This document shows positions 1 to 58,158 of a DNA stretch of 64,000 nt, piece after piece. The position numbers and the translations under genes were made by a program. Source of the stretch: Armatimonadota bacterium (GTDB lineage Bacteria; Armatimonadota; Fimbriimonadia; Fimbriimonadales; ATM1); NCBI GenBank assembly GCA_037446435.1, contig JBBIIO010000006.1, positions 1,633 through 65,632 of the forward strand, in the 5' to 3' direction. Under the pieces are notes generated by a model. It was not told where the DNA came from, searched no databases, and worked only from the letters and a program-made list of their open reading frames with translations. Positions within the stretch are counted from its first letter, which is position 1; every line of letters begins with the position of its first letter.

Positions 1-1166
1 ACATTGGAGGAGGTTGGCGCCTGAGGCCCCTCGCTGCGATCGCCCTCGCTTGCGCGGCGGGCGGTCTGGGCGCCGAGCCGCTCATCACCGCGAGCGCAGC
101 GGTCGTGCTTGATGCCGAGTCGGGCAGGGTGCTGTTCGCCCGCTCGGCGGACGCGCGCAGGTTCCCCGCCTCGACCACTAAGATTCTCACCGCGTTGCTG
201 CTGGCGGAGCATTGCGAGCCGCTGACTGAAATCCGCGCGCCGCTGGACGTGCAGCAGGTCGGAGGGTCTTCGCTGTACCTCGAGCCTGCGGAGCGCGTCC
301 GCGCCGAAGATCTTCTTCATGCGCTCCTCCTGCGCAGCGCGAACGATGCAGCGTACGCCGTGGCTGTTCACATCGCCGGCAGCCAAGAGGCGTTTGCTGA
401 CCTGATGAACGAGCGGGCAAAGCAGATTGGGTGTAGCGGCTCCAACTTCACCAATCCACATGGCCTGCACGACCCGCTGCACTACACGACGGCTCGAGAC
501 CTCGCGCTGATCACTCGCGAGGCGCTGCGCAACGAGCGCTTCCGCGAGGCAGCGAAGACGACCCGCACGAGCATCTGGCGATCAACAAACCTTGAAGACA
601 CGCTGCTCATCAATAAGAACCGCCTGCTCTCTGTTGACCCCGATGCCGTCGGTGTGAAGACGGGATACACGAACCCGGCGGGACACTGCTTCGTCGGCGC
701 GCGGTCTCGCGACGGATGGACGGCGATCGTGGTTGTGCTGAATAGCGCAGACTGGCTCGCCGACACGCGCTCGCTGCTCGACTGGGCGTTCGCGGAGCAT
801 CAGCTCACGACGATTGTCTCCGAGCGTGAAGCCATCGCGTCCGCGATCGTCGCTGGTGGAGAGCGCGAAGCCGTCTCGGCGGTGGCTGCGCACGACGTTC
901 GCACGGCGCTCGCGATGGGCGATGGTGTGATTGACACGCAGGTCGACCTCGCCAACCTCTCGGCGCCGGTCCGCGCGGGTCAACAGGTCGGGGAGTTACG
1001 CATAACGCTCTCCGGAGGCGACAAGTTGAGCGTCCCCCTGGTCGCCGCTGAGGCTGTCCGTGCCGCCGAACCGCGTCAGGTACCGTTCCAGTGGCTGTGG
1101 GCGACGCTTGGGATGACCCTCGTCGGCGCAGGCGTCGTTCTTCTGGCGCGAGCGCGAAATGGGTGA
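1..1166 (+). CDS. D-alanyl-D-alanine carboxypeptidase (peptidase S11, PBP5/6-like); true start upstream of 105 or off-window
   Basis: The frame of ORF 105..1166 stays open back to base 3. The upstream residues (RLRPLAAIALACAAGGLG) look like a signal peptide. SxxK (ASTTK), SxN (SAND) and KTG (VKTGYT) motifs are present, with a C-terminal hydrophobic anchor. Confidence 0.85.
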   Translation, partial: IGGGWRLRPLAAIALACAAGGLGAEPLITASAAVVLDAESGRVLFARSADARRFPASTTKILTALLLAEHCEPLTEIRAPLDVQQVGGSSLYLEPAERVRAEDLLHALLLRSANDAAYAVAVHIAGSQEAFADLMNERAKQIGCSGSNFTNPHGLHDPLHYTTARDLALITREALRNERFREAAKTTRTSIWRSTNLEDTLLINKNRLLSVDPDAVGVKTGYTNPAGHCFVGARSRDGWTAIVVVLNSADWLADTRSLLDWAFAEHQLTTIVSEREAIASAIVAGGEREAVSAVAAHDVRTALAMGDGVIDTQVDLANLSAPVRAGQQVGELRITLSGGDKLSVPLVAAEAVRAAEPRQVPFQWLWATLGMTLVGAGVVLLARARNG

Positions 1167-4520: not shown

Positions 4521-4546
4521 GACACCGCCGACCGCCGAAGTATAAT
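4519..4546 (+). promoter_or_regulatory. putative promoter of ispG (leaderless)
   Basis: Perfect TATAAT at 4541-4546, 8 nt upstream of ATG 4555. -35-like CCGACA at 4519-4524 with a 16-nt spacer. No SD. Confidence 0.5.
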
Positions 4547-5814: not shown

Positions 5815-6348
5815 CTAAGCGCCGATGAACTCGGCAAACGCTGCAAGGAACTTCTTCATCCTCTCCACGTCCGCCGCATCAAGAAGATTGCCTTCGTCGT
5901 CAATCTTCTCTCGATACTGGGGCAGGAAGTACTCGGCGCGCAACTGCTTCGCCTCCAAATAGAACAGCACCTGGCGGAGGTGGTATTGCGCGCGAGCGCC
6001 GCCGAGGAGTCCTGGCGCGGCGCTCATCAGCGCCACCGGCTTGCCGCAAATGGGCTGCTCGGATACAGGCCGTGAGATCCAGTCAATGGCATTCTTCAAC
6101 ACGCCGGAGTAGGAGTAGTTGTGCTCGGGCACCGCGATGAGCAGGCCGTCCGACTCGCGAATCCGATTCTTCAGTTCCGTAACTGCCGGCGGAGGGTCGT
6201 CCTCAATGTCCATGTTGTAGAGCGGAATCGGAGCAAGGTCGAAGTGCTCGATCTGCATTCCCTCGGGGGCGTGAGCCTGGGCTGCGTGCACCAACCGCTT
6301 GTGAACTGAACCCTGCCTCAAAGATCCGGCGATTGCAACCACTCGCAT
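5815..6348 (-). CDS. NAD(P)H-dependent FMN reductase family oxidoreductase
   Basis: 177 aa with a flavodoxin-like N-terminus MRVVAIAGSLRQGSVHK, typical of the FMN_red family. Confidence 0.8.
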   Translation of the reverse strand: MRVVAIAGSLRQGSVHKRLVHAAQAHAPEGMQIEHFDLAPIPLYNMDIEDDPPPAVTELKNRIRESDGLLIAVPEHNYSYSGVLKNAIDWISRPVSEQPICGKPVALMSAAPGLLGGARAQYHLRQVLFYLEAKQLRAEYFLPQYREKIDDEGNLLDAADVERMKKFLAAFAEFIGA

Positions 6349-6385
6349 ATCTATATAGCCTACCCAGACGGGCCGGAGACAGTTC

Positions 6386-7527: not shown

Positions 7528-7533
7528 ATTATG
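7528..7533 (-). promoter_or_regulatory. -10 box CATAAT, 8 nt upstream of ATG 7519 (leaderless FAD-oxidoreductase gene)
   Basis: Plus strand reads attatg at 7528-7533. Only 31 nt separate this gene from the divergent VOC gene. Confidence 0.4.
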
Positions 7534-7538
7534 ATGGG

Positions 7539-7544
7539 TATCCT
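7539..7544 (+). promoter_or_regulatory. -10-like box TATCCT, 6 nt upstream of ATG 7551 (VOC gene)
   Basis: Read directly from the sequence. An alternative TATGAT at 7530-7535 would give a 15-nt leader. No SD. Confidence 0.35.
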
Positions 7545-7550
7545 TCCTCC

Positions 7551-7895
7551 ATGGCGATGCGCTGGTCGGTGGCATGGTGCCCGGTGTCGGACATGGAGCG
7601 AGCGTTGGCGTTCTATCGCGACGTGCTGGGCATCGAGGTCGTCAGCGAGAACCAGTTCTGGTCGGAACTCCGCGCCGGCGACGTGCGCCTGGCGCTCCAC
7701 GACGGCGGCGAGGACGCCCAGCGTGGCGGGTGGACGATTTGCCTGGAGACAGACGACTTGGACCTCCTCCGAACGAGGCTCATGGAGGCGGGGGTGGAGT
7801 GCGATTCGGAGTACCACGAGACGCCATCCGGGGCGACCCTCGCCTTCCGAGACCCGGACGGGAACCGCCTCCAGGGGCTCCAACCCCGCAAGTAG
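7551..7895 (+). CDS. VOC/glyoxalase-family protein
   Basis: 114 aa. The VSDMERALAFYRDVLG start and FRDPDGNRL end are typical of the glyoxalase/bleomycin-resistance fold. Confidence 0.75.
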   Translation: MAMRWSVAWCPVSDMERALAFYRDVLGIEVVSENQFWSELRAGDVRLALHDGGEDAQRGGWTICLETDDLDLLRTRLMEAGVECDSEYHETPSGATLAFRDPDGNRLQGLQPRK

Positions 7896-14179: not shown

Positions 14180-14185
14180 TACAAT
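14180..14185 (+). promoter_or_regulatory. -10 box TACAAT, 12 nt upstream of the tRNA-Cys 5' end
   Basis: Read directly from the sequence. A weak -35-like TTCATG lies 17 nt upstream. Confidence 0.45.
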
Positions 14186-16343: not shown

Positions 16344-16349
16344 TATCAT
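16344..16349 (+). promoter_or_regulatory. -10-like box TATCAT, 6 nt upstream of GTG 16356
   Basis: Read directly from the sequence. No SD. Confidence 0.35.
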
Positions 16350-23815: not shown

Positions 23816-23843
23816 TTGCCGGCGCCGTCGGTTGCGGTATCGT
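23816..23843 (+). promoter_or_regulatory. putative promoter of folB (leaderless)
   Basis: TTGCCG (23816-21), 16-nt spacer, TATCGT (23838-43), then 7 nt to ATG 23851. Confidence 0.4.
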
Positions 23844-26655: not shown

Positions 26656-27866
26656 GACTCGTCCCCTTCTGCAAACACCCACCGGAACGCCTCGTCCGGC
26701 TCCGGCATTGGGGCTTTGATGGCGAACTCGACGCCCCGCTTCAAGTAGGCGACTACCTCCGGCGGGAAGTCTGAATCGGTTGTGCTGGGCGCGTCCTTCC
26801 CTTCGGGCGCGAACCGGGCTGCGTCCTCTTCGCTCAGAAGTCCACCCTCGACGAGGTGCCGCTTGAAAACGGCAATCGGGTCGCGGCTCCGGCCGTTCGT
26901 GACCTCCTCCTCGGGACGGTACCGCGCCGCGCGGTCGTCGTCGTGGTCGCCGTGGCCGTAGGCACGGAACGTCTTGCACTCTATCAGCGCCGGGCCGAGG
27001 CCCTTTCGCGCGCGGTCAACAGCCCACATCGTCTTGTCGTACACGTCGAGAACGTCCTGTCCGTCGGCAATCAGGCCGGGGATGCCGTAGCCCTTGGCAC
27101 GGTCGGCAACGTCCTTCGTCGGCACCTCGAGGTGGACCGGCGTGCCGTACGCCCACTGGTTGTTCTCGATGATGACGATGACCGCCAACTTGTGAATGGC
27201 TGCAAGGTTTACCGCCTCGTGGAACACGCCCTGCGCGGTCGAGCCTTCGCCGTTGTAGGTGAGAACGACGTTGTCGAGCCCCTTCAGTTTGAAATCGTAC
27301 GCAACGCCGCACGCGACCGGTATGGTGCCCGCCAGCATGCTGGTGCTGGGGATGATGCCGCGCTTCACGTCGCCGATGTGAGACCAGTTGTCCCTTGCCC
27401 TGCCGGGAGCGGTCGCCTTGCCCCAGACCTGCGAGCAGACCTCCTCGATGGTCATCCCCTTGCGGTCCGCATTGTCCCAGCCGGAGCGAATGTCCTTGAG
27501 GAAGAACGCGGGCATGTCCCGGTGGATGGGCGAGGTCCAGTCGTCGGGCTTGAGTCCAAAAAGGGTCCCGACCAGGATTGCCTCTTGATTATGAGAGGAG
27601 TAGAGAGTTCCGCGCAGGCGCCCTCGCCGCTTCTCCTTAATCAGCCGCACATCGAAGTATCGGGCGAGATACAGTTGGCGCAGCAACTCGAGGTGATCCT
27701 CGGGAGTTAGGGCATCCCGGGGTCGTACGGCTACCGCCGCATCCTCTTGGCGATTATCCTCCGTCGGCTCTGACGGAGTCGAAACGGTCTTAGTCTTCAA
27801 TCTGAACGGCTCCTGACGCTCTATGGACACCAATTCCTGCCTGGACTGCCGAGTATACCCGTCCAA
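26652..27866 (-). CDS. 2-oxoacid dehydrogenase E1 component, alpha subunit (TPP-dependent)
   Basis: TPP-binding GEGSTAQGVFHEAVNLAA...IIENNQWAY. ATGA overlap with the beta subunit. The start is uncertain: TTG 27866 or the GTG 12 codons downstream. The first ~60 codons have atypical codon usage. Confidence 0.85.
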   Translation of the reverse strand: MDGYTRQSRQELVSIERQEPFRLKTKTVSTPSEPTEDNRQEDAAVAVRPRDALTPEDHLELLRQLYLARYFDVRLIKEKRRGRLRGTLYSSHNQEAILVGTLFGLKPDDWTSPIHRDMPAFFLKDIRSGWDNADRKGMTIEEVCSQVWGKATAPGRARDNWSHIGDVKRGIIPSTSMLAGTIPVACGVAYDFKLKGLDNVVLTYNGEGSTAQGVFHEAVNLAAIHKLAVIVIIENNQWAYGTPVHLEVPTKDVADRAKGYGIPGLIADGQDVLDVYDKTMWAVDRARKGLGPALIECKTFRAYGHGDHDDDRAARYRPEEEVTNGRSRDPIAVFKRHLVEGGLLSEEDAARFAPEGKDAPSTTDSDFPPEVVAYLKRGVEFAIKAPMPEPDEAFRWVFAEGDES

Positions 27867-32336: not shown

Positions 32337-32342
32337 TAGACT
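32337..32342 (+). promoter_or_regulatory. -10-like box TAGACT, 6 nt upstream of GTG 32349 (mqnC)
   Basis: Read directly from the sequence. No SD. Confidence 0.35.
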
Positions 32343-32348
32343 TCGCTC

Positions 32349-33473
32349 GTGGCATCCTCACCCACCCAAGCCCCGGCGAGAGGAAAGGTCAGCGAGATTC
32401 GCGGGCGCGTGCTCGCAGGGGAAAGAATCAGCGCCGACGACGCCTTGGCGCTTTTTCACCACACGAACCTGCCCGAGTTGGCTGAGATGGCGAACTTCCG
32501 GCGTCAGTCGCTGGCGCCTGGCCGCGTCGTGACCTACGTCATTGGCCGCATTCTGAATTATACCAACGTGTGCTGGGTTCGGTGCCGCTTCTGCGCTTTT
32601 TATCGGGTGCCGGGTCACGACGAGGGTTATCTCCTCACGGACGACGAGATTCTGCAGAAGGTGGAGGACACCGTGCGGCAGGGTGGCGTGGAGATTCTTT
32701 TCCAGGGCGGCCTGAATCCCTCGCTGAAGGTGGAATACTACGAGCGCGTTTTCCGAAAGATCCGCGAGCGCTTTCCCGCCGTTATCCTTCACGCGCTCAG
32801 CCCGGCGGAGATCATCTACGTTGCGCATCGCAGCAAGTTGACGCTGCGGGAATGCTTGATTCGCCTGCACGAATCCGGCTTGCACAGCATTCCGGGCGCG
32901 GGTGGCGAGATTCTCGTCGACCGCGTTCGCAAGATCATCGCGCCTTACAAGGACACCACCGACGAGTGGTTGCACTGCATGCGAACCGCGGCGGAACTCG
33001 GCATCCGCTCGACCGCCAGCATGATGTTCGGTCACGTTGAGACGGTCGAGGACCGCGTGGAGCACCTGCAGCGCATTCGTGACCTGCAGGACGAGTGCGG
33101 GCCCTTCCGCGCGTTCATCACTTGGAGCTTCCAACCGGAGGAGACCGCTCTGCCGATTGAGCGCAAAGCGTCCGCGTTCGACTATCTTCGCACGCTTGCG
33201 GTGTCGCGGATCTTCTTAGACAACATCCCAAACATCCAGGTTTCGTTCCTCACGCAAGGCCCGCGCGTAGCGCAGGTTGCGCTGGGCTATGGAGCAAATG
33301 ACTTCGGCTCCGTGATGATCGAGGAGAACGTCGTATCCGCTGCGGGGAACAAGTTTATCGTAGACGCGAACGAATTCGAGCGTTTGATTCGCGACGCAGG
33401 GTATATCCCTCGGCGCCGAAACACCCGGTATGAAATAATCGATGACCGCGGAGTCGTTGATGCCAACACTTAG
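32349..33473 (+). CDS. mqnC: radical-SAM cyclic dehypoxanthinyl futalosine synthase (futalosine menaquinone pathway)
   Basis: NYTNVCWVRCRFCAF cluster motif. The LFQGGLNP, HALSPAEI, MMFGHVET and FITWSFQP patterns fit MqnC better than MqnE, judged from memory of family consensus. Confidence 0.75.
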   Translation: MASSPTQAPARGKVSEIRGRVLAGERISADDALALFHHTNLPELAEMANFRRQSLAPGRVVTYVIGRILNYTNVCWVRCRFCAFYRVPGHDEGYLLTDDEILQKVEDTVRQGGVEILFQGGLNPSLKVEYYERVFRKIRERFPAVILHALSPAEIIYVAHRSKLTLRECLIRLHESGLHSIPGAGGEILVDRVRKIIAPYKDTTDEWLHCMRTAAELGIRSTASMMFGHVETVEDRVEHLQRIRDLQDECGPFRAFITWSFQPEETALPIERKASAFDYLRTLAVSRIFLDNIPNIQVSFLTQGPRVAQVALGYGANDFGSVMIEENVVSAAGNKFIVDANEFERLIRDAGYIPRRRNTRYEIIDDRGVVDANT

Positions 33474-34048
33474 TTCGCCAACCCTCGCGCAGGAGTTCCT
33501 GGCCTGATAGCATTCACAAATTCGTAGAGAGCTTGGCGCAACTCAGCTGAACTCATCCCTTTGGAGCGAATCGTAAACCTGAGCCGCCACAGTTCGCTGC
33601 CGACGTAACTCTCGAAGGCGACATAGCGCTGCCCGTCCAACTCACCCTCGACGATCCCTCCAAAAAAGACCCCCAGCGCCACGCCGTCACTCCCTGAGGC
33701 GTCGGCAAGGACGCGGACTTCTGCCTCCGGCTCAGGCAGCGCATCGACCCTCAGGATGGCGTCGGGATAACTGGGGCTACTCAGCTCCGCCGGGAGCGTG
33801 TACGACATGCCGCTGCTTACCGGCTCGTCGGTCATGACGCACCACCCACGTGGCAGCATTCCCCAGCACCCTCGCCCGGCTATGCCGGAATCCAGAATCA
33901 CGAGCGAGCTGCTCCCGGGATCGACAGGTCGCGACTCCAGTGCTTCCTCCGAGAGGGGCGATGAGCCGCCTCGAGCGCCCGTGCAGCCGCCACTAAGCAA
34001 GTGCACGAGCATCAAGAAGGACACGGCGTGCCTCGCAACGGCCTTCAT
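33470..34048 (-). CDS. hypothetical lipoprotein
   Basis: 192 aa with signal peptide plus lipobox LLSGG-C. Family not recognised. Confidence 0.6.
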   Translation of the reverse strand: MKAVARHAVSFLMLVHLLSGGCTGARGGSSPLSEEALESRPVDPGSSSLVILDSGIAGRGCWGMLPRGWCVMTDEPVSSGMSYTLPAELSSPSYPDAILRVDALPEPEAEVRVLADASGSDGVALGVFFGGIVEGELDGQRYVAFESYVGSELWRLRFTIRSKGMSSAELRQALYEFVNAIRPGTPARGLAN

Positions 34049-34055
34049 GCCGAGT

Positions 34056-34061
34056 ATTCTA
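34056..34061 (-). promoter_or_regulatory. -10 box TAGAAT, 7 nt upstream of ATG 34048
   Basis: Plus strand reads attcta at 34056-34061. No SD. Confidence 0.45.
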
Positions 34062-34082
34062 TCCTGCCGCCGTCGCTTCGGT

Positions 34083-34088
34083 CATAAT
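34083..34088 (+). promoter_or_regulatory. -10 box CATAAT, 8 nt upstream of GTG 34097 (trpS)
   Basis: Read directly from the sequence. No SD. Confidence 0.4.
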
Positions 34089-34096
34089 GCGCCCCC

Positions 34097-35083
34097 GTGT
34101 CACGTAAGAGGCTTCTTAGCGGCATGCAGCCCACCCAGCCCCAACTCCACCTCGGCAATCTTGAGGGGGCGCTACGGAACTGGGTCCGACTTCAAGAGGA
34201 TTACGACCTCTACTGCTGCATCGTAGATTGGCACGCGCTCACAACAATGATCGAGCGAACCGGGGAGATCTACGAGAACTCCATCGGCATCGCGACTGAC
34301 TACCTCGCTGCCGGGATAGACCCTGACCGAAGCGTCATCTTCATCCAGTCGCAAGTGAAGGAGCACGCGGAGTTGTATCTCTTGCTCAGCATGGTTACGC
34401 CTCTTGGGTGGCTTGAGCGCGTGCCCACCTACAAGGAGAAGCGCGATTCGTTGGAAGGCAAGGCGGAGGCAAGCCACGGCCTGCTGGGCTATCCCGTGCT
34501 CCAGGCGGCGGACATCCTGCTGTACAAGCCGTACGGCGTGCCCGTGGGCAAAGATCAGGTTCCCCACCTTGAACTAACGCGCGAAATAGCCCGAAGATTC
34601 AACCATCTGTACGGCGACACCTTCCCGATCATCGAGAACGTGCTGAGCGATGTTCCTATCATGATGGGAATTGACGGCAGGAAGATGAGCAAGAGTTACG
34701 ACAACGCCATCTACATCGCCGACGACGAGGACACGACCGCGAAGAAGATGATGGGGGCGTTCACCGACCCGCAGAAGATTCGCAAAGACGACCCCGGGTA
34801 CCCGGAGGGCTGCGCGATCTTCCACCTCCACGCCGTCTACAACAAGTCGAACGTCGCGACCGTCGAAGCTGAGTGCCGCGCCGGGCAGAGGGGCTGCGTT
34901 CAGTGCAAGAAGGAGGCCATTGAAGCGGTAAACGCAGCTCTCCGCCCAATTCGAGAGCGAAGGAAGGAGTGGGAACGGAACCGTGAGGGCGTTTTGACAG
35001 TCCTCAAGGAAGGCGCAGAGCGCGCCCGAGTCGTAGCCTCCGAAACGATGAAGGAGGCGCGAAGAGCGATGGGTTTGCCATGA
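34097..35083 (+). CDS. trpS: tryptophan--tRNA ligase
   Basis: 328 aa. HIGH-like LHLGNLEG, KMSKS and GYPVLQAADIL. Confidence 0.92.
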   Translation: MSRKRLLSGMQPTQPQLHLGNLEGALRNWVRLQEDYDLYCCIVDWHALTTMIERTGEIYENSIGIATDYLAAGIDPDRSVIFIQSQVKEHAELYLLLSMVTPLGWLERVPTYKEKRDSLEGKAEASHGLLGYPVLQAADILLYKPYGVPVGKDQVPHLELTREIARRFNHLYGDTFPIIENVLSDVPIMMGIDGRKMSKSYDNAIYIADDEDTTAKKMMGAFTDPQKIRKDDPGYPEGCAIFHLHAVYNKSNVATVEAECRAGQRGCVQCKKEAIEAVNAALRPIRERRKEWERNREGVLTVLKEGAERARVVASETMKEARRAMGLP

Positions 35084-38404: not shown

Positions 38405-38410
38405 ATTCTA
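38405..38410 (-). promoter_or_regulatory. -10 box TAGAAT, 9 nt upstream of the tRNA-Arg 5' end
   Basis: Plus strand reads attcta at 38405-38410. Confidence 0.45.
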
Positions 38411-38449: not shown

Positions 38450-38455
38450 TATGAT
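38450..38455 (+). promoter_or_regulatory. -10 box TATGAT, 6 nt upstream of ATG 38462
   Basis: Read directly from the sequence. Geometry matches the other putative leaderless genes in this window. Confidence 0.4.
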
Positions 38456-38615: not shown

Positions 38616-38621
38616 TAGAAT
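38616..38621 (+). promoter_or_regulatory. -10 box TAGAAT, 10 nt upstream of the tRNA-Pro 5' end
   Basis: Read directly from the sequence. Confidence 0.45.
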
Positions 38622-39413: not shown

Positions 39414-39419
39414 AGCATA
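39414..39419 (-). promoter_or_regulatory. -10 box TATGCT, 8 nt upstream of ATG 39405
   Basis: Plus strand reads agcata at 39414-39419. No SD. Confidence 0.4.
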
Positions 39420-39443: not shown

Positions 39444-39449
39444 TACAAT
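39444..39449 (+). promoter_or_regulatory. -10 box TACAAT, 6 nt upstream of ATG 39456
   Basis: Read directly from the sequence. This argues for ATG 39456 rather than the ORF-track GTG 39441. Confidence 0.45.
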
Positions 39450-41407: not shown

Positions 41408-41413
41408 TAAACT
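41408..41413 (+). promoter_or_regulatory. -10-like box TAAACT, 9 nt upstream of ATG 41423 (alr)
   Basis: Read directly from the sequence. The box abuts the ORF-track GTG 41414, which makes that start unlikely. Confidence 0.35.
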
Positions 41414-44420: not shown

Positions 44421-44426
44421 ATTATG
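44421..44426 (-). promoter_or_regulatory. -10 box CATAAT, 8 nt upstream of GTG 44412
   Basis: Plus strand reads attatg at 44421-44426. No SD. Confidence 0.4.
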
Positions 44427-44480: not shown

Positions 44481-44486
44481 TATGAT
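44481..44486 (+). promoter_or_regulatory. -10 box TATGAT, 6 nt upstream of GTG 44493
   Basis: Read directly from the sequence. Supports GTG 44493, which gives the signal peptide VRRLLLSLACLPLLHASAQ, over the ORF-track start 44424. Confidence 0.4.
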
Positions 44487-58118: not shown

Positions 58119-58158
58119 AGTTTCCTACTCTTCGACGCAAACGGTCAGTATACCCAAA

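What the first reader, a model, noticed from the sequence alone, without database searches (positions are those of the whole stretch)
34049..34096. Recurrent TAnnnT box 6-9 nt upstream of start codons: many first genes appear to be leaderless
At the first gene of at least 14 apparent transcription units, a -10-like hexamer sits 6-9 nt before the start codon and no Shine-Dalgarno is present. Format below is hexamer, spacer length, start codon and coordinate. ispG: TATAAT-8-ATG 4555. FAD oxidoreductase: CATAAT-8-ATG 7519 (minus). VOC: TATCCT-6-ATG 7551. GH116: TATCAT-6-GTG 16356. folB: TATCGT-7-ATG 23851. mqnC: TAGACT-6-GTG 32349. Lipoprotein: TAGAAT-7-ATG 34048 (minus). trpS: CATAAT-8-GTG 34097. 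50-aa sORF: TATGAT-6-ATG 38462. Lipoprotein: TATGCT-8-ATG 39405 (minus). FG-GAP: TACAAT-6-ATG 39456. alr: TAAACT-9-ATG 41423. GT-C: CATAAT-8-GTG 44412 (minus). DUF5916: TATGAT-6-GTG 44493. All three tRNAs carry TACAAT or TAGAAT 9-12 nt before the mature 5' end. Four divergent pairs share very short intergenic regions (31, 48, 50 and 80 nt) holding two back-to-back boxes. The 48-nt region given here is the cleanest example. Operon-internal genes and a minority of first genes instead carry GGAG/AAGGAG SDs. Several putative leaderless starts are GTG, which is unusual because leaderless translation is normally thought to need AUG.
Basis: seen in the sequence. Interest (0 to 1): 0.6.

Follow-up and report, generated by a model that had tools for sequence, protein, structure and literature searches.

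The report
Promoter boxes directly before start codons
In this uncultured Armatimonadota (Fimbriimonadales) bacterium roughly one gene in seven has a promoter -10 box only 6-10 bases before its ATG or GTG and no ribosome-binding site; this is the known signature of leaderless mRNAs, supported here by sequence statistics and conservation but not by RNA data.

Summary
All 14 hexamer-spacer-start triples, the three tRNA boxes and the four short divergent spacers (31, 48, 50, 80 nt) are in the sequence as stated.

It is far more than chance. Genome-wide (2.23 Mb, my own gene calls), TANNNT lies 6-10 nt before 260 of 1790 starts, against about 56 at control spacings. With a flexible choice of start, the excess is about 246 genes (about 14%).

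The excess is ATG (about 175) and GTG (about 68), not TTG (about 2). The box is GG-TAnAMT (also CATAAT), with no -35 signal. It excludes Shine-Dalgarno motifs and shows no excess before overlapping operon-internal genes.

The same box precedes 34 of 49 tRNA genes, so it is a promoter element and not a translation signal. Box-plus-start pairs at trpS, ispG, mqnC and alr are conserved across related genomes while the flanking DNA is not.

This is the known leaderless organisation of Actinobacteria and Deinococcus-Thermus (GeneMarkS-2 "group C"), where GTG leaderless starts are already documented. New is only the lineage, and a patchy spread within the phylum.

This scan has already reported the same thing in five other Armatimonadota genomes.

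The parts
34056..34061 (-). -10 box TAGAAT (prefix gga), 7 nt before ATG 34048 of the 192-aa lipoprotein gene (33470-34048)
   Evidence: The N-terminus MKAVARHAVSFLMLVHLLSGGC forms a signal peptide only if translation starts at this ATG (read from the sequence).
34083..34088 (+). -10 box CATAAT (prefix ggt), 8 nt before GTG 34097 of trpS (34097-35083)
   Evidence: CATAAT-8-GTG is conserved in six Fimbriimonadales orthologue loci while the rest of the upstream DNA cannot be aligned. TrpS residues 1-177 match NCBIfam profile positions 1-176.
4541..4546 (+). TATAAT, 8 nt before ATG 4555 (ispG)
   Evidence: AGTAnAnT lies 7-10 nt before the ATG in 10 of 14 same-family genomes. The TIGR00612 profile begins at residue 7.
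6357..6362 (-). TAGGCT (prefix ggg), 8 nt before ATG 6348 (FMN reductase).
   Evidence: Pfam FMN_red matches residues 1-144 to profile positions 1-149.
7528..7533 (-). CATAAT, 8 nt before ATG 7519 (FAD-dependent oxidoreductase)
   Evidence: Profile matches begin at residues 2-6.
7539..7544 (+). TATCCT (prefix ggg), 6 nt before ATG 7551 (glyoxalase/VOC protein, 7551-7895). It lies back to back with the box at 7528-7533 in a 31-nt spacer.
   Evidence: Pfam Glyoxalase matches residues 11-108 to profile positions 8-120.
14180..14185 (+). TACAAT (prefix ggg), 12 nt before tRNA-Cys
16344..16349 (+). TATCAT, 6 nt before GTG 16356 (GH116 glycoside hydrolase)
   Evidence: The start was not tested independently.
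23838..23843 (+). TATCGT (prefix cgg), 7 nt before ATG 23851 (folB)
   Evidence: TIGR00525 matches residues 10-122 to profile positions 3-115.
32337..32342 (+). TAGACT (prefix tgg), 6 nt before GTG 32349 (mqnC)
   Evidence: GGTAGACT-6/7-GTG is present in all three genomes of the genus (G000 and its two same-genus relatives). A box lies 5-12 nt before the first usable start in 12 of 14 same-family genomes.
38405..38410 (-). TAGAAT (prefix ggg), 9 nt before tRNA-Arg
38450..38455 (+). TATGAT, 6 nt before ATG 38462 (hypothetical 50-aa ORF)
   Evidence: The ORF has no family match and was not tested further.
38616..38621 (+). TAGAAT, 10 nt before tRNA-Pro
39414..39419 (-). TATGCT (prefix ggg), 8 nt before ATG 39405 (230-aa lipoprotein)
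39444..39449 (+). TACAAT, 6 nt before ATG 39456 (FG-GAP repeat protein). It lies back to back with the box at 39414-39419 in a 50-nt spacer.
41408..41413 (+). TAAACT, 9 nt before ATG 41423 (alr)
   Evidence: TAAACT or TAAAAT lies 8-12 nt before the ATG in 9 of 14 same-family genomes, and a tenth has GGTACACT-6-GTG. The alternative start GTG 41414 is missing in the nearest relative.
44421..44426 (-). CATAAT, 8 nt before GTG 44412 (GT-C/PMT-like glycosyltransferase)
44481..44486 (+). TATGAT (prefix ggg), 6 nt before GTG 44493 (DUF5916 protein)
   Evidence: GGTATnAT-6..8-GTG is present in all three genomes of the genus (G000 and its two same-genus relatives).

Best explanation
The recurrent box is the -10 element of this organism's housekeeping promoter. 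Its consensus is GG-TAnAMT, with CATAAT as an accepted variant, and most copies have no recognisable -35 partner. Where the box ends 6-7 nt before an ATG or GTG, RNA polymerase should initiate on the purine of the start codon itself. With spacers of 8-10 nt it should initiate 1-4 nt upstream. The resulting mRNA has no Shine-Dalgarno sequence, so a ribosome carrying initiator tRNA must recognise the 5'-terminal AUG or GUG directly.

The 48-nt region at 34049-34096 holds two such promoters back to back. One drives the lipoprotein gene leftwards and one drives trpS rightwards. The upstream part of each promoter lies over the other's box and start codon.

Shown here: the motif, its positional enrichment, its exclusivity with Shine-Dalgarno motifs, its presence before tRNA genes, its conservation, and the start-codon rule. 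Inferred: the transcription start sites and translation from the 5' end.
For: (1) Position. TANNNT peaks at spacers 6-10: 69, 67, 43, 46 and 35 of 1790 starts, against about 10 per position elsewhere. With a flexible choice of start, 393 genes have a box against about 147 at control spacings.

(2) The box is a promoter, not a ribosome-binding site. 34 of 49 tRNA genes carry the same GG-prefixed box 8-15 nt before the mature 5' end, where about 1 would be expected. tmRNA, SRP RNA and rnpB have one too. The 16S promoter is TTGACA-17-CATAAT.

(3) Overlapping co-directional genes show no excess (2.4% against 3.4% at control spacings). Divergent genes show an excess of 18.6%.

(4) Box-bearing starts carry a Shine-Dalgarno 4-mer in 3% of cases, against 36% for other genes. 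The 16S rRNA keeps a canonical CACCUCCUUU tail, so both initiation modes coexist.

(5) The excess over control spacings is ATG about 175, GTG about 68 and TTG about 2. This is the rule measured in D. deserti (PMC4007540) and mycobacteria (PMC4633059).

(6) Conservation. CATAAT-8-GTG of trpS is kept in six related loci inside otherwise unalignable DNA, whereas Chthonomonadales orthologues have AGGAG Shine-Dalgarno sequences instead. The ispG, mqnC, alr and DUF5916 boxes track their start codons across same-family genomes.

(7) N-termini from the box-adjacent starts fit family profiles for IspG, TrpS, FolB, VOC, the FAD oxidoreductase, Alr and the FMN reductase.

(8) 29 divergent pairs have boxes on both sides. 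In 17 of them the spacer is only 26-56 nt, which leaves no room for 5' UTRs.
Against: My gene and start calls are home-made. They mis-set several starts, for example trpS and ispG, so the percentages are rough.

Some individual sites are untested: the GH116 start, the 50-aa ORF and the two lipoprotein genes.

A few orthologues place the same box 12-17 nt before the start (ispG in three genomes). Short leaders therefore do occur, and a spacer of 9-10 nt may give 2-4 nt leaders rather than none.
Confidence: 0.85

Rival explanations
1. The boxes are real promoters, but the start codons are mis-assigned. Translation would begin at a downstream codon, so the mRNAs would be leadered and initiate without a Shine-Dalgarno sequence.
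For: My coding-potential start caller often preferred a downstream start: trpS 34124, ispG 4591, mqnC 32409. MqnC has 24 residues ahead of the TIGR03699 profile.
Against: The enrichment is tied to a fixed distance from an in-frame ATG or GTG, and TTG shows none. Profile matches reach residues 1-7 for TrpS, IspG, Alr, the FAD oxidoreductase and the FMN reductase. In orthologues the box moves together with the first usable start codon, even where the N-terminal peptide is not conserved (mqnC, 12 of 14 genomes).
Confidence: 0.07
2. The TA-rich box is a translation signal, that is, a non-Shine-Dalgarno ribosome-binding or unstructured element, inside longer leaders transcribed from promoters further upstream.
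For: It occupies the same distance from the start codon as a Shine-Dalgarno sequence would, and it excludes Shine-Dalgarno motifs.
Against: The same GG-TAnAMT box precedes 34 of 49 tRNA genes and the tmRNA gene, which are not translated. CATAAT is the -10 of a classical TTGACA-17-CATAAT rRNA promoter. The near-invariant T, A and final T are the positions read by sigma-70-type factors (established knowledge). There is no excess before overlapping operon-internal genes. Divergent spacers of 26-56 nt leave no intergenic room for other promoters.
Confidence: 0.04
3. It is a compositional or definitional artefact. AT-rich hexamers, or the in-frame TAA/TAG stop that defines the beginning of an ORF, simply pile up before first start codons.
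For: In-frame TAA/TAG stops do add about 20 counts each at spacers 6 and 9.
Against: Spacers 7, 8 and 10 cannot hold an in-frame stop, yet they are enriched 4-7 fold. Stop-linked counts peak at spacers 6 and 9, not at 0 and 3 as a simple decay would give. The GG prefix occurs in 43% of start-proximal boxes, against 10.7% of all genomic TANNNT. Two other Armatimonadota sampled from different families, with GC contents of 53% and 47%, show no peak under the same pipeline (G022 and G030).
Confidence: 0.02

Closest known systems
The '-10 motif adjacent to ORFs' and leaderless mRNAs of Deinococcus-Thermus (D. deserti dRNA-seq and proteogenomics, PMC4007540; D. radiodurans and the wider phylum, PMC12340547)
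   Same: TANNNT lies about 6-7 nt before the ORF. There is no conserved -35. A separate GGAG class of genes exists. Start codons are ATG and GTG but almost never TTG (D. deserti: 83%, 17% and 0.3%). Gene starts are often mis-annotated. The signal is conserved across the clade.
   Different: The phylum is different (Armatimonadota). The share of genes is lower here (about 14% of genes, against about a third in D. radiodurans and 60% of TSSs in D. deserti). There is a strong GG at -14/-13. No stand-alone CarD was found in this genome. There is no experimental support here.
Leaderless transcriptome of mycobacteria and other Actinobacteria (M. tuberculosis TSS map, PMC3898074; M. smegmatis reporters and ribosome profiling, PMC4633059)
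   Same: The promoters have TANNNT and no -35. A 5'-terminal ATG or GTG, but not TTG or CTG, is sufficient. Leaderless and Shine-Dalgarno-led genes coexist.
   Different: The three bases ahead of the box are [G/C][A/G]N in M. tuberculosis but (G)GG here. The lineage is different. The status here is inferred only.
GeneMarkS-2 'group C' genomes (PMC6028130) and the TA-led leaderless genes of Zheng et al. 2011 (PMC3160421)
   Same: The computational definition is met: a Pribnow-type motif localised about 6-10 nt from the starts of first genes in operons, and Shine-Dalgarno sequences at the other genes.
   Different: Those surveys name Actinobacteria and Deinococcus-Thermus as the main carriers. 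In the text available to me Armatimonadota are not mentioned, and the supplementary tables were not held. A 2024 survey lists only 25% Shine-Dalgarno use for Fimbriimonadia against 70% for Chthonomonadetes (PMC10783764), which fits my result.
Extended -10 (TGn) promoters
   Same: The promoters are independent of a -35 element, and a conserved G at -14 sits just upstream of the hexamer.
   Different: The upstream bases are GG at -14/-13, often GGG, and not T-15 G-14. TGnTANNNT accounts for only 18 of 260 boxes.

Membership tests
Bacterial genomes with frequent leaderless transcription (GeneMarkS-2 group C; Zheng 2011 TA-led genes) | A -10/Pribnow-like motif localised about 6-10 nt upstream of the start codons of many genes, above background | tested here: met
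   260 of 1790 starts, against 56.3 at control spacers. The peak is at spacers 6-7.
Bacterial genomes with frequent leaderless transcription (GeneMarkS-2 group C; Zheng 2011 TA-led genes) | These genes lack a Shine-Dalgarno motif, while other genes (operon-internal and leadered) carry one that matches the 16S tail | tested here: met
   A Shine-Dalgarno 4-mer is present at 3% of box-bearing starts, against 36% of other genes. A G-rich peak lies at -14 to -8 for internal genes. The 16S rRNA ends in CACCUCCUUU.
Bacterial genomes with frequent leaderless transcription (GeneMarkS-2 group C; Zheng 2011 TA-led genes) | The motif marks first genes of transcription units, not tightly coupled internal genes | tested here: met
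   There is no excess before overlapping co-directional genes (2.4% against 3.4%). The excess is 13-22% in the other contexts.
Leaderless mRNAs in the experimental sense (D. deserti, M. tuberculosis) | The transcription start site lies at the start codon or within 5 nt upstream of it | not testable with these tools
The only indirect calibration is that the rnpB model begins 6 nt after its box.
Leaderless mRNAs in the experimental sense (D. deserti, M. tuberculosis) | The start codon is restricted to ATG or GTG | tested here: met
   The excess over control spacings is ATG about 175, GTG about 68 and TTG about 2.
Leaderless mRNAs in the experimental sense (D. deserti, M. tuberculosis) | The protein N-terminus corresponds to the 5'-terminal codon (proteomics or ribosome profiling) | not testable with these tools
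   Only indirect support is available: family profiles reach residues 1-7 of seven of the proteins, and the start codons are conserved in orthologues.
Extended -10 (TGn) promoter class | A TG dinucleotide at -15/-14, one base upstream of the hexamer | tested here: not met
   TGnTANNNT accounts for 18 of 260 boxes. The prevailing prefix is GG at -14/-13: 61-66% at protein genes and 80-88% at tRNA genes.
Extended -10 (TGn) promoter class | No need for a -35 hexamer | tested here: inconclusive
   There is no information content at -35 in 393 protein-gene sites or 38 tRNA sites. That is a statistical absence, not a functional test. The 16S promoter does have TTGACA.

The most novel reading that the evidence does not exclude
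Several Armatimonadota lineages (this family, and the f2 and f13 families sampled here) would be a further major bacterial group with pervasive leaderless gene expression. It would be driven by a GG-extended -10 promoter that works without a -35 and without a stand-alone CarD or RbpA-type helper. Other sampled families of the same phylum (the Chthonomonas-like f8, and f17) keep the same sigma motif at one of two tRNA genes sampled in the Chthonomonas-like genome but use Shine-Dalgarno-led starts. The phylum would then be a natural comparative system for how leaderless initiation is gained or lost gene by gene; trpS, for example, has CATAAT-8-GTG in one clade and an AGGAG-led start in the other.
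Probability: 0.55. Interest if true: 0.45.

Novelty: new member of a known kind. Interest (0 to 1): 0.3.

Why it matters
For this genome and its relatives, the practical consequence is annotation. Gene finders tuned to Shine-Dalgarno sites will misplace many starts. My own coding-potential caller misplaced trpS, ispG and mqnC.

For biology, it extends the known range of leaderless-rich bacteria to a poorly studied phylum. It also shows clade-to-clade switching between leaderless and Shine-Dalgarno-led starts for the same housekeeping genes.

It does not reveal a new mechanism. The motif, the missing -35, the spacing and the use of GTG have all been demonstrated experimentally in Deinococcus and mycobacteria.

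Tried and rejected

(2) The in-frame stop artefact was examined and found to be real but minor.

(3) A PWM refinement of the box collapsed back to TANNNT and added nothing beyond a lower bound of about 190 genes.

(4) CarD as a helper for promoters without a -35. Only Mfd carries the CarD_TRCF_RID domain in this 100%-complete genome, so that idea has no support here.

(5) Codon-bias score as a proxy for expression. Box-bearing genes score 0.239 per codon, Shine-Dalgarno genes 0.226 and the remaining genes 0.221. I draw no conclusion from this difference.

(6) GeneMarkS-2 supplementary tables, to see whether any Armatimonadota genome was already classed as group C. They were not held.

(7) The contigs of G028 were too short to give a usable sample (53 kb).

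(8) DUF5916 orthologues outside the genus. The N-termini are signal peptides that are too divergent to align, so no conclusion was possible.

Full report
**What is there**

The window is C6:1633-65632 of a 2.23-Mb, 78-contig genome with 63.5% GC. Its TrpS is closest to MAGs labelled Armatimonadota/Fimbriimonadales, at 70-94% identity.

I re-read all 14 sites.

In the 48-nt region 34049-34096, the minus-strand box TAGAAT lies at 34056-34061, 7 nt from ATG 34048. The plus-strand box CATAAT lies at 34083-34088, 8 nt from GTG 34097. The two boxes are 21 nt apart.

The three tRNA genes carry TACAAT-12, TAGAAT-9 and TAGAAT-10. The four divergent spacers measure 31, 48, 50 and 80 nt.

NCBIfam and Pfam confirm the gene names: ispG, an FAD oxidoreductase, a glyoxalase/VOC protein, GH116, folB, mqnC, trpS, alr, an FG-GAP protein, a PMT-like GT-C and a DUF5916 protein.

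**Is it more than chance?**

No gene finder was installed, so I wrote one. It scores stop-to-stop ORFs by codon usage, selects them greedily, and picks starts by maximal downstream coding score.

- Relative to 1790 starts, TANNNT counts at spacers 6-10 are 69, 67, 43, 46 and 35. Elsewhere the count is about 10 per position.
- The total is 260, against a mean of 56.3 in six control spacer windows (Poisson tail 1.6e-86).
- In-frame ATG/GTG/TTG codons deep inside genes show no peak.
- One artefact is real. The in-frame TAA/TAG that opens an ORF adds about 20 counts at spacers 6 and 9. Spacers 7, 8 and 10 cannot contain such a stop and are still enriched 4-7 fold.
- If any early candidate start is allowed, 393 genes have a box, against about 147 at control spacings. 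The excess is about 246 genes, or about 14% of all genes.

**What the motif is**

Aligned on the hexamer, the sites show G at -14 (61%) and G at -13 (66%). Only 10.7% of all genomic TANNNT have a GG prefix. Inside the hexamer there is A at position 4 and A or C at position 5. There is no information at -35.

The decisive point is that the same box stands before non-coding genes.

- 34 of 49 tRNA genes have it 8-15 nt (mode 10-12) before the mature 5' end. The GG prefix is present in 80-88% of them, and again there is no -35. About one such tRNA gene would be expected by chance.
- tmRNA has GGGTATCCT-12, SRP RNA has TGCTATCAT-9, and the rnpB model begins 6 nt after GGGGTTTAAT.
- The 16S promoter is a classical TTGACA-17-CATAAT. 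This shows that CATAAT is a genuine -10 variant and that the sigma factor still reads a -35 where one exists.

The box is therefore a promoter element, not a ribosome-binding signal.

**Does its placement behave like leaderless genes?**

- Box-bearing starts carry a GGAG/GAGG/AGGA 4-mer at Shine-Dalgarno distance in 3% of cases, against 36% for other genes.
- The 16S tail is a normal CACCUCCUUU, and operon-internal genes show the expected G-rich peak.
- By context, overlapping co-directional genes show no excess (2.4% against 3.4% at control spacings). The excess is 15% for co-directional spacers of 1-20 nt, 22% for 21-50 nt, and 18.6% for divergent genes.
- 29 divergent pairs have boxes on both sides.
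- The excess by start codon is ATG about 175, GTG about 68 (P = 3.5e-16) and TTG about 2 (not significant).

**Are the starts right?**

Family profiles reach the N-termini implied by the box-adjacent starts:

| Protein | Residues matched | Profile positions |
|---|---|---|
| TrpS | 1-177 | 1-176 |
| IspG | from 7 | from 1 |
| Alr | from 7 | from 3 |
| FAD oxidoreductase | from 2 | from 3 |
| FolB | from 10 | from 3 |
| VOC | from 11 | from 8 |

The lipoprotein at 34048 has a proper signal peptide only if translation begins at that ATG (read from the sequence).

Two sites looked ambiguous: mqnC (alternative GTG 32409) and alr (alternative GTG 41414 with a GAGG 9 nt upstream). Orthologues settle both.

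- For mqnC, all three genomes of the genus (G000 and its two same-genus relatives) have GGTAGACT-6/7-GTG. 12 of 14 same-family genomes have a box 5-12 nt before their first usable start, although the N-terminal 20 residues and the upstream DNA are not conserved.
- For alr, 9 of 14 have TAAACT or TAAAAT 8-12 nt before the ATG, and a tenth has GGTACACT-6-GTG. The GTG alternative is absent in the nearest relative.
- ispG keeps AGTAnAnT 7-10 nt before the ATG in 10 of 14 genomes and 12-17 nt before it in three more.
- trpS keeps CATAAT-8-GTG in six Fimbriimonadales loci whose upstream DNA is otherwise unalignable. Chthonomonadales orthologues carry AGGAG-type Shine-Dalgarno sequences instead.
- The GH116 start, the 50-aa ORF and the two lipoprotein genes were not tested in this way.

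**Spread in the phylum**

I ran the same pipeline on 200-400 kb from other genomes.

| Genome | Relationship | Box at spacer 6-10 | Control spacers | Shine-Dalgarno 4-mer |
|---|---|---|---|---|
| G071 | same family | 12.5% | 4.6% | not compared |
| G051 | same order, f2 | 20.2% | 5.8% | 17% |
| G026 | f13 | 15.9% | 4.8% | not compared |
| G078 | f31 | 6.2% | 5.3% | not compared |
| G045 | f5 | 6.8% | 4.4% | not compared |
| G022 | single 3,437,861-bp contig, f8, Chthonomonas-like | 4.7% | 8.3% | 69% |
| G030 | f17 | 14.5% | 13.0% | 76% |

G078 and G045 give weak signals, and G022 and G030 give none. The GG prefix recurs in the genomes that show the signal.

This agrees with a published table that gives 25% Shine-Dalgarno use for Fimbriimonadia and 70% for Chthonomonadetes (PMC10783764). 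These are single samples per family. I do not claim absence beyond those searched.

**Comparison with what is known**

This is the organisation described computationally by Zheng et al. 2011 (TANNNT about 12 nt before the start codon; PMC3160421) and by GeneMarkS-2 as group C (Pribnow box 6-8 nt from the start; 1028 of 4769 bacteria, mostly Actinobacteria and Deinococcus-Thermus).

It has been shown experimentally in three systems.

- D. deserti: 60% of TSSs are leaderless, there is no -35, and leaderless starts are 83% ATG, 17% GTG and 0.3% TTG (PMC4007540).
- D. radiodurans: the -10 motif lies 6-7 bp before ORFs in about a third of genes (PMC12340547).
- Mycobacteria: promoters have TANNNT and no -35 (PMC3898074), and an ATG or GTG at the 5' end is necessary and sufficient while TTG and CTG are not (PMC4633059).

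Full-text searches for "leaderless" together with "Armatimonadetes" or "Armatimonadota" found no paper on the subject. Only the lineage appears to be new.

Lineage-specific details are the GG at -14/-13, rather than the TGn of extended -10 promoters or the [G/C][A/G]N of M. tuberculosis, and the lack of a stand-alone CarD.

This scan has already reported the same GG-TAnnnT leaderless pattern in five other Armatimonadota genomes. My analysis of this genome is independent of those notes and agrees with them.

**Limits**

- The percentages depend on a home-made gene caller that misplaces some starts.
- Spacers of 8-10 nt may give leaders of 1-4 nt.

**Verdict**

It is a new member of a well-known kind, of modest interest.

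Noticed in passing
whole genome G000; in the window 14180-14185, 38405-38410 and 38616-38621: 34 of 49 tRNA genes have their own GGTAnAMT box 8-15 nt (mode 10-12) before the mature 5' end. Nearly every tRNA would then be its own transcription unit with a predicted 5' leader of only about 2-6 nt. RNase P RNA is present (C31:24511-24841).
   Followed up: partly
window 6357-6362 (-), start codon at 6348: GGTAGGCT-8-ATG stands before an FMN reductase gene (5815-6348). It lies inside a 37-nt spacer after the co-directional FAD oxidoreductase gene.
   Followed up: partly
window 27830-27866 (-): GGTATACT lies 22 nt before GTG 27830, with an AGGA at Shine-Dalgarno distance. It looks like the same promoter box used with a short Shine-Dalgarno-bearing leader. 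The alternative TTG 27866 start was not resolved.
   Followed up: no
window 58141-58152 (-): GGTATACT sits 6 nt before TTG 58140, inside the ribosomal-protein cluster and just downstream of the EF-G paralogue gene. It could be an internal promoter. A TTG leaderless start would go against the genome-wide rule, so the true start is probably elsewhere.
   Followed up: no
G000 contig C30, about 200 nt upstream of the 16S 5' end (16S at C30:11851-13368, minus strand): The rRNA promoter is a classical TTGACA-17-CATAAT. It is the one clear -35 hexamer I noted during this work, and it shows that CATAAT is a functional -10 variant.
   Followed up: partly
G000 whole genome: There is no stand-alone CarD. 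The only CarD_TRCF_RID domain lies in a 1201-aa Mfd-like ORF (C28:5983-6153). Six sigma-70-family genes with a region 3 are present.
   Followed up: partly
L010, L013, L016, L017 and L018 (Chthonomonadales trpS loci), compared with L001-L007: The same housekeeping gene, trpS, switches between a leaderless-type CATAAT-8-GTG start (Fimbriimonadales) and AGGAG/GGAGG Shine-Dalgarno-led starts (Chthonomonadales).
   Followed up: partly
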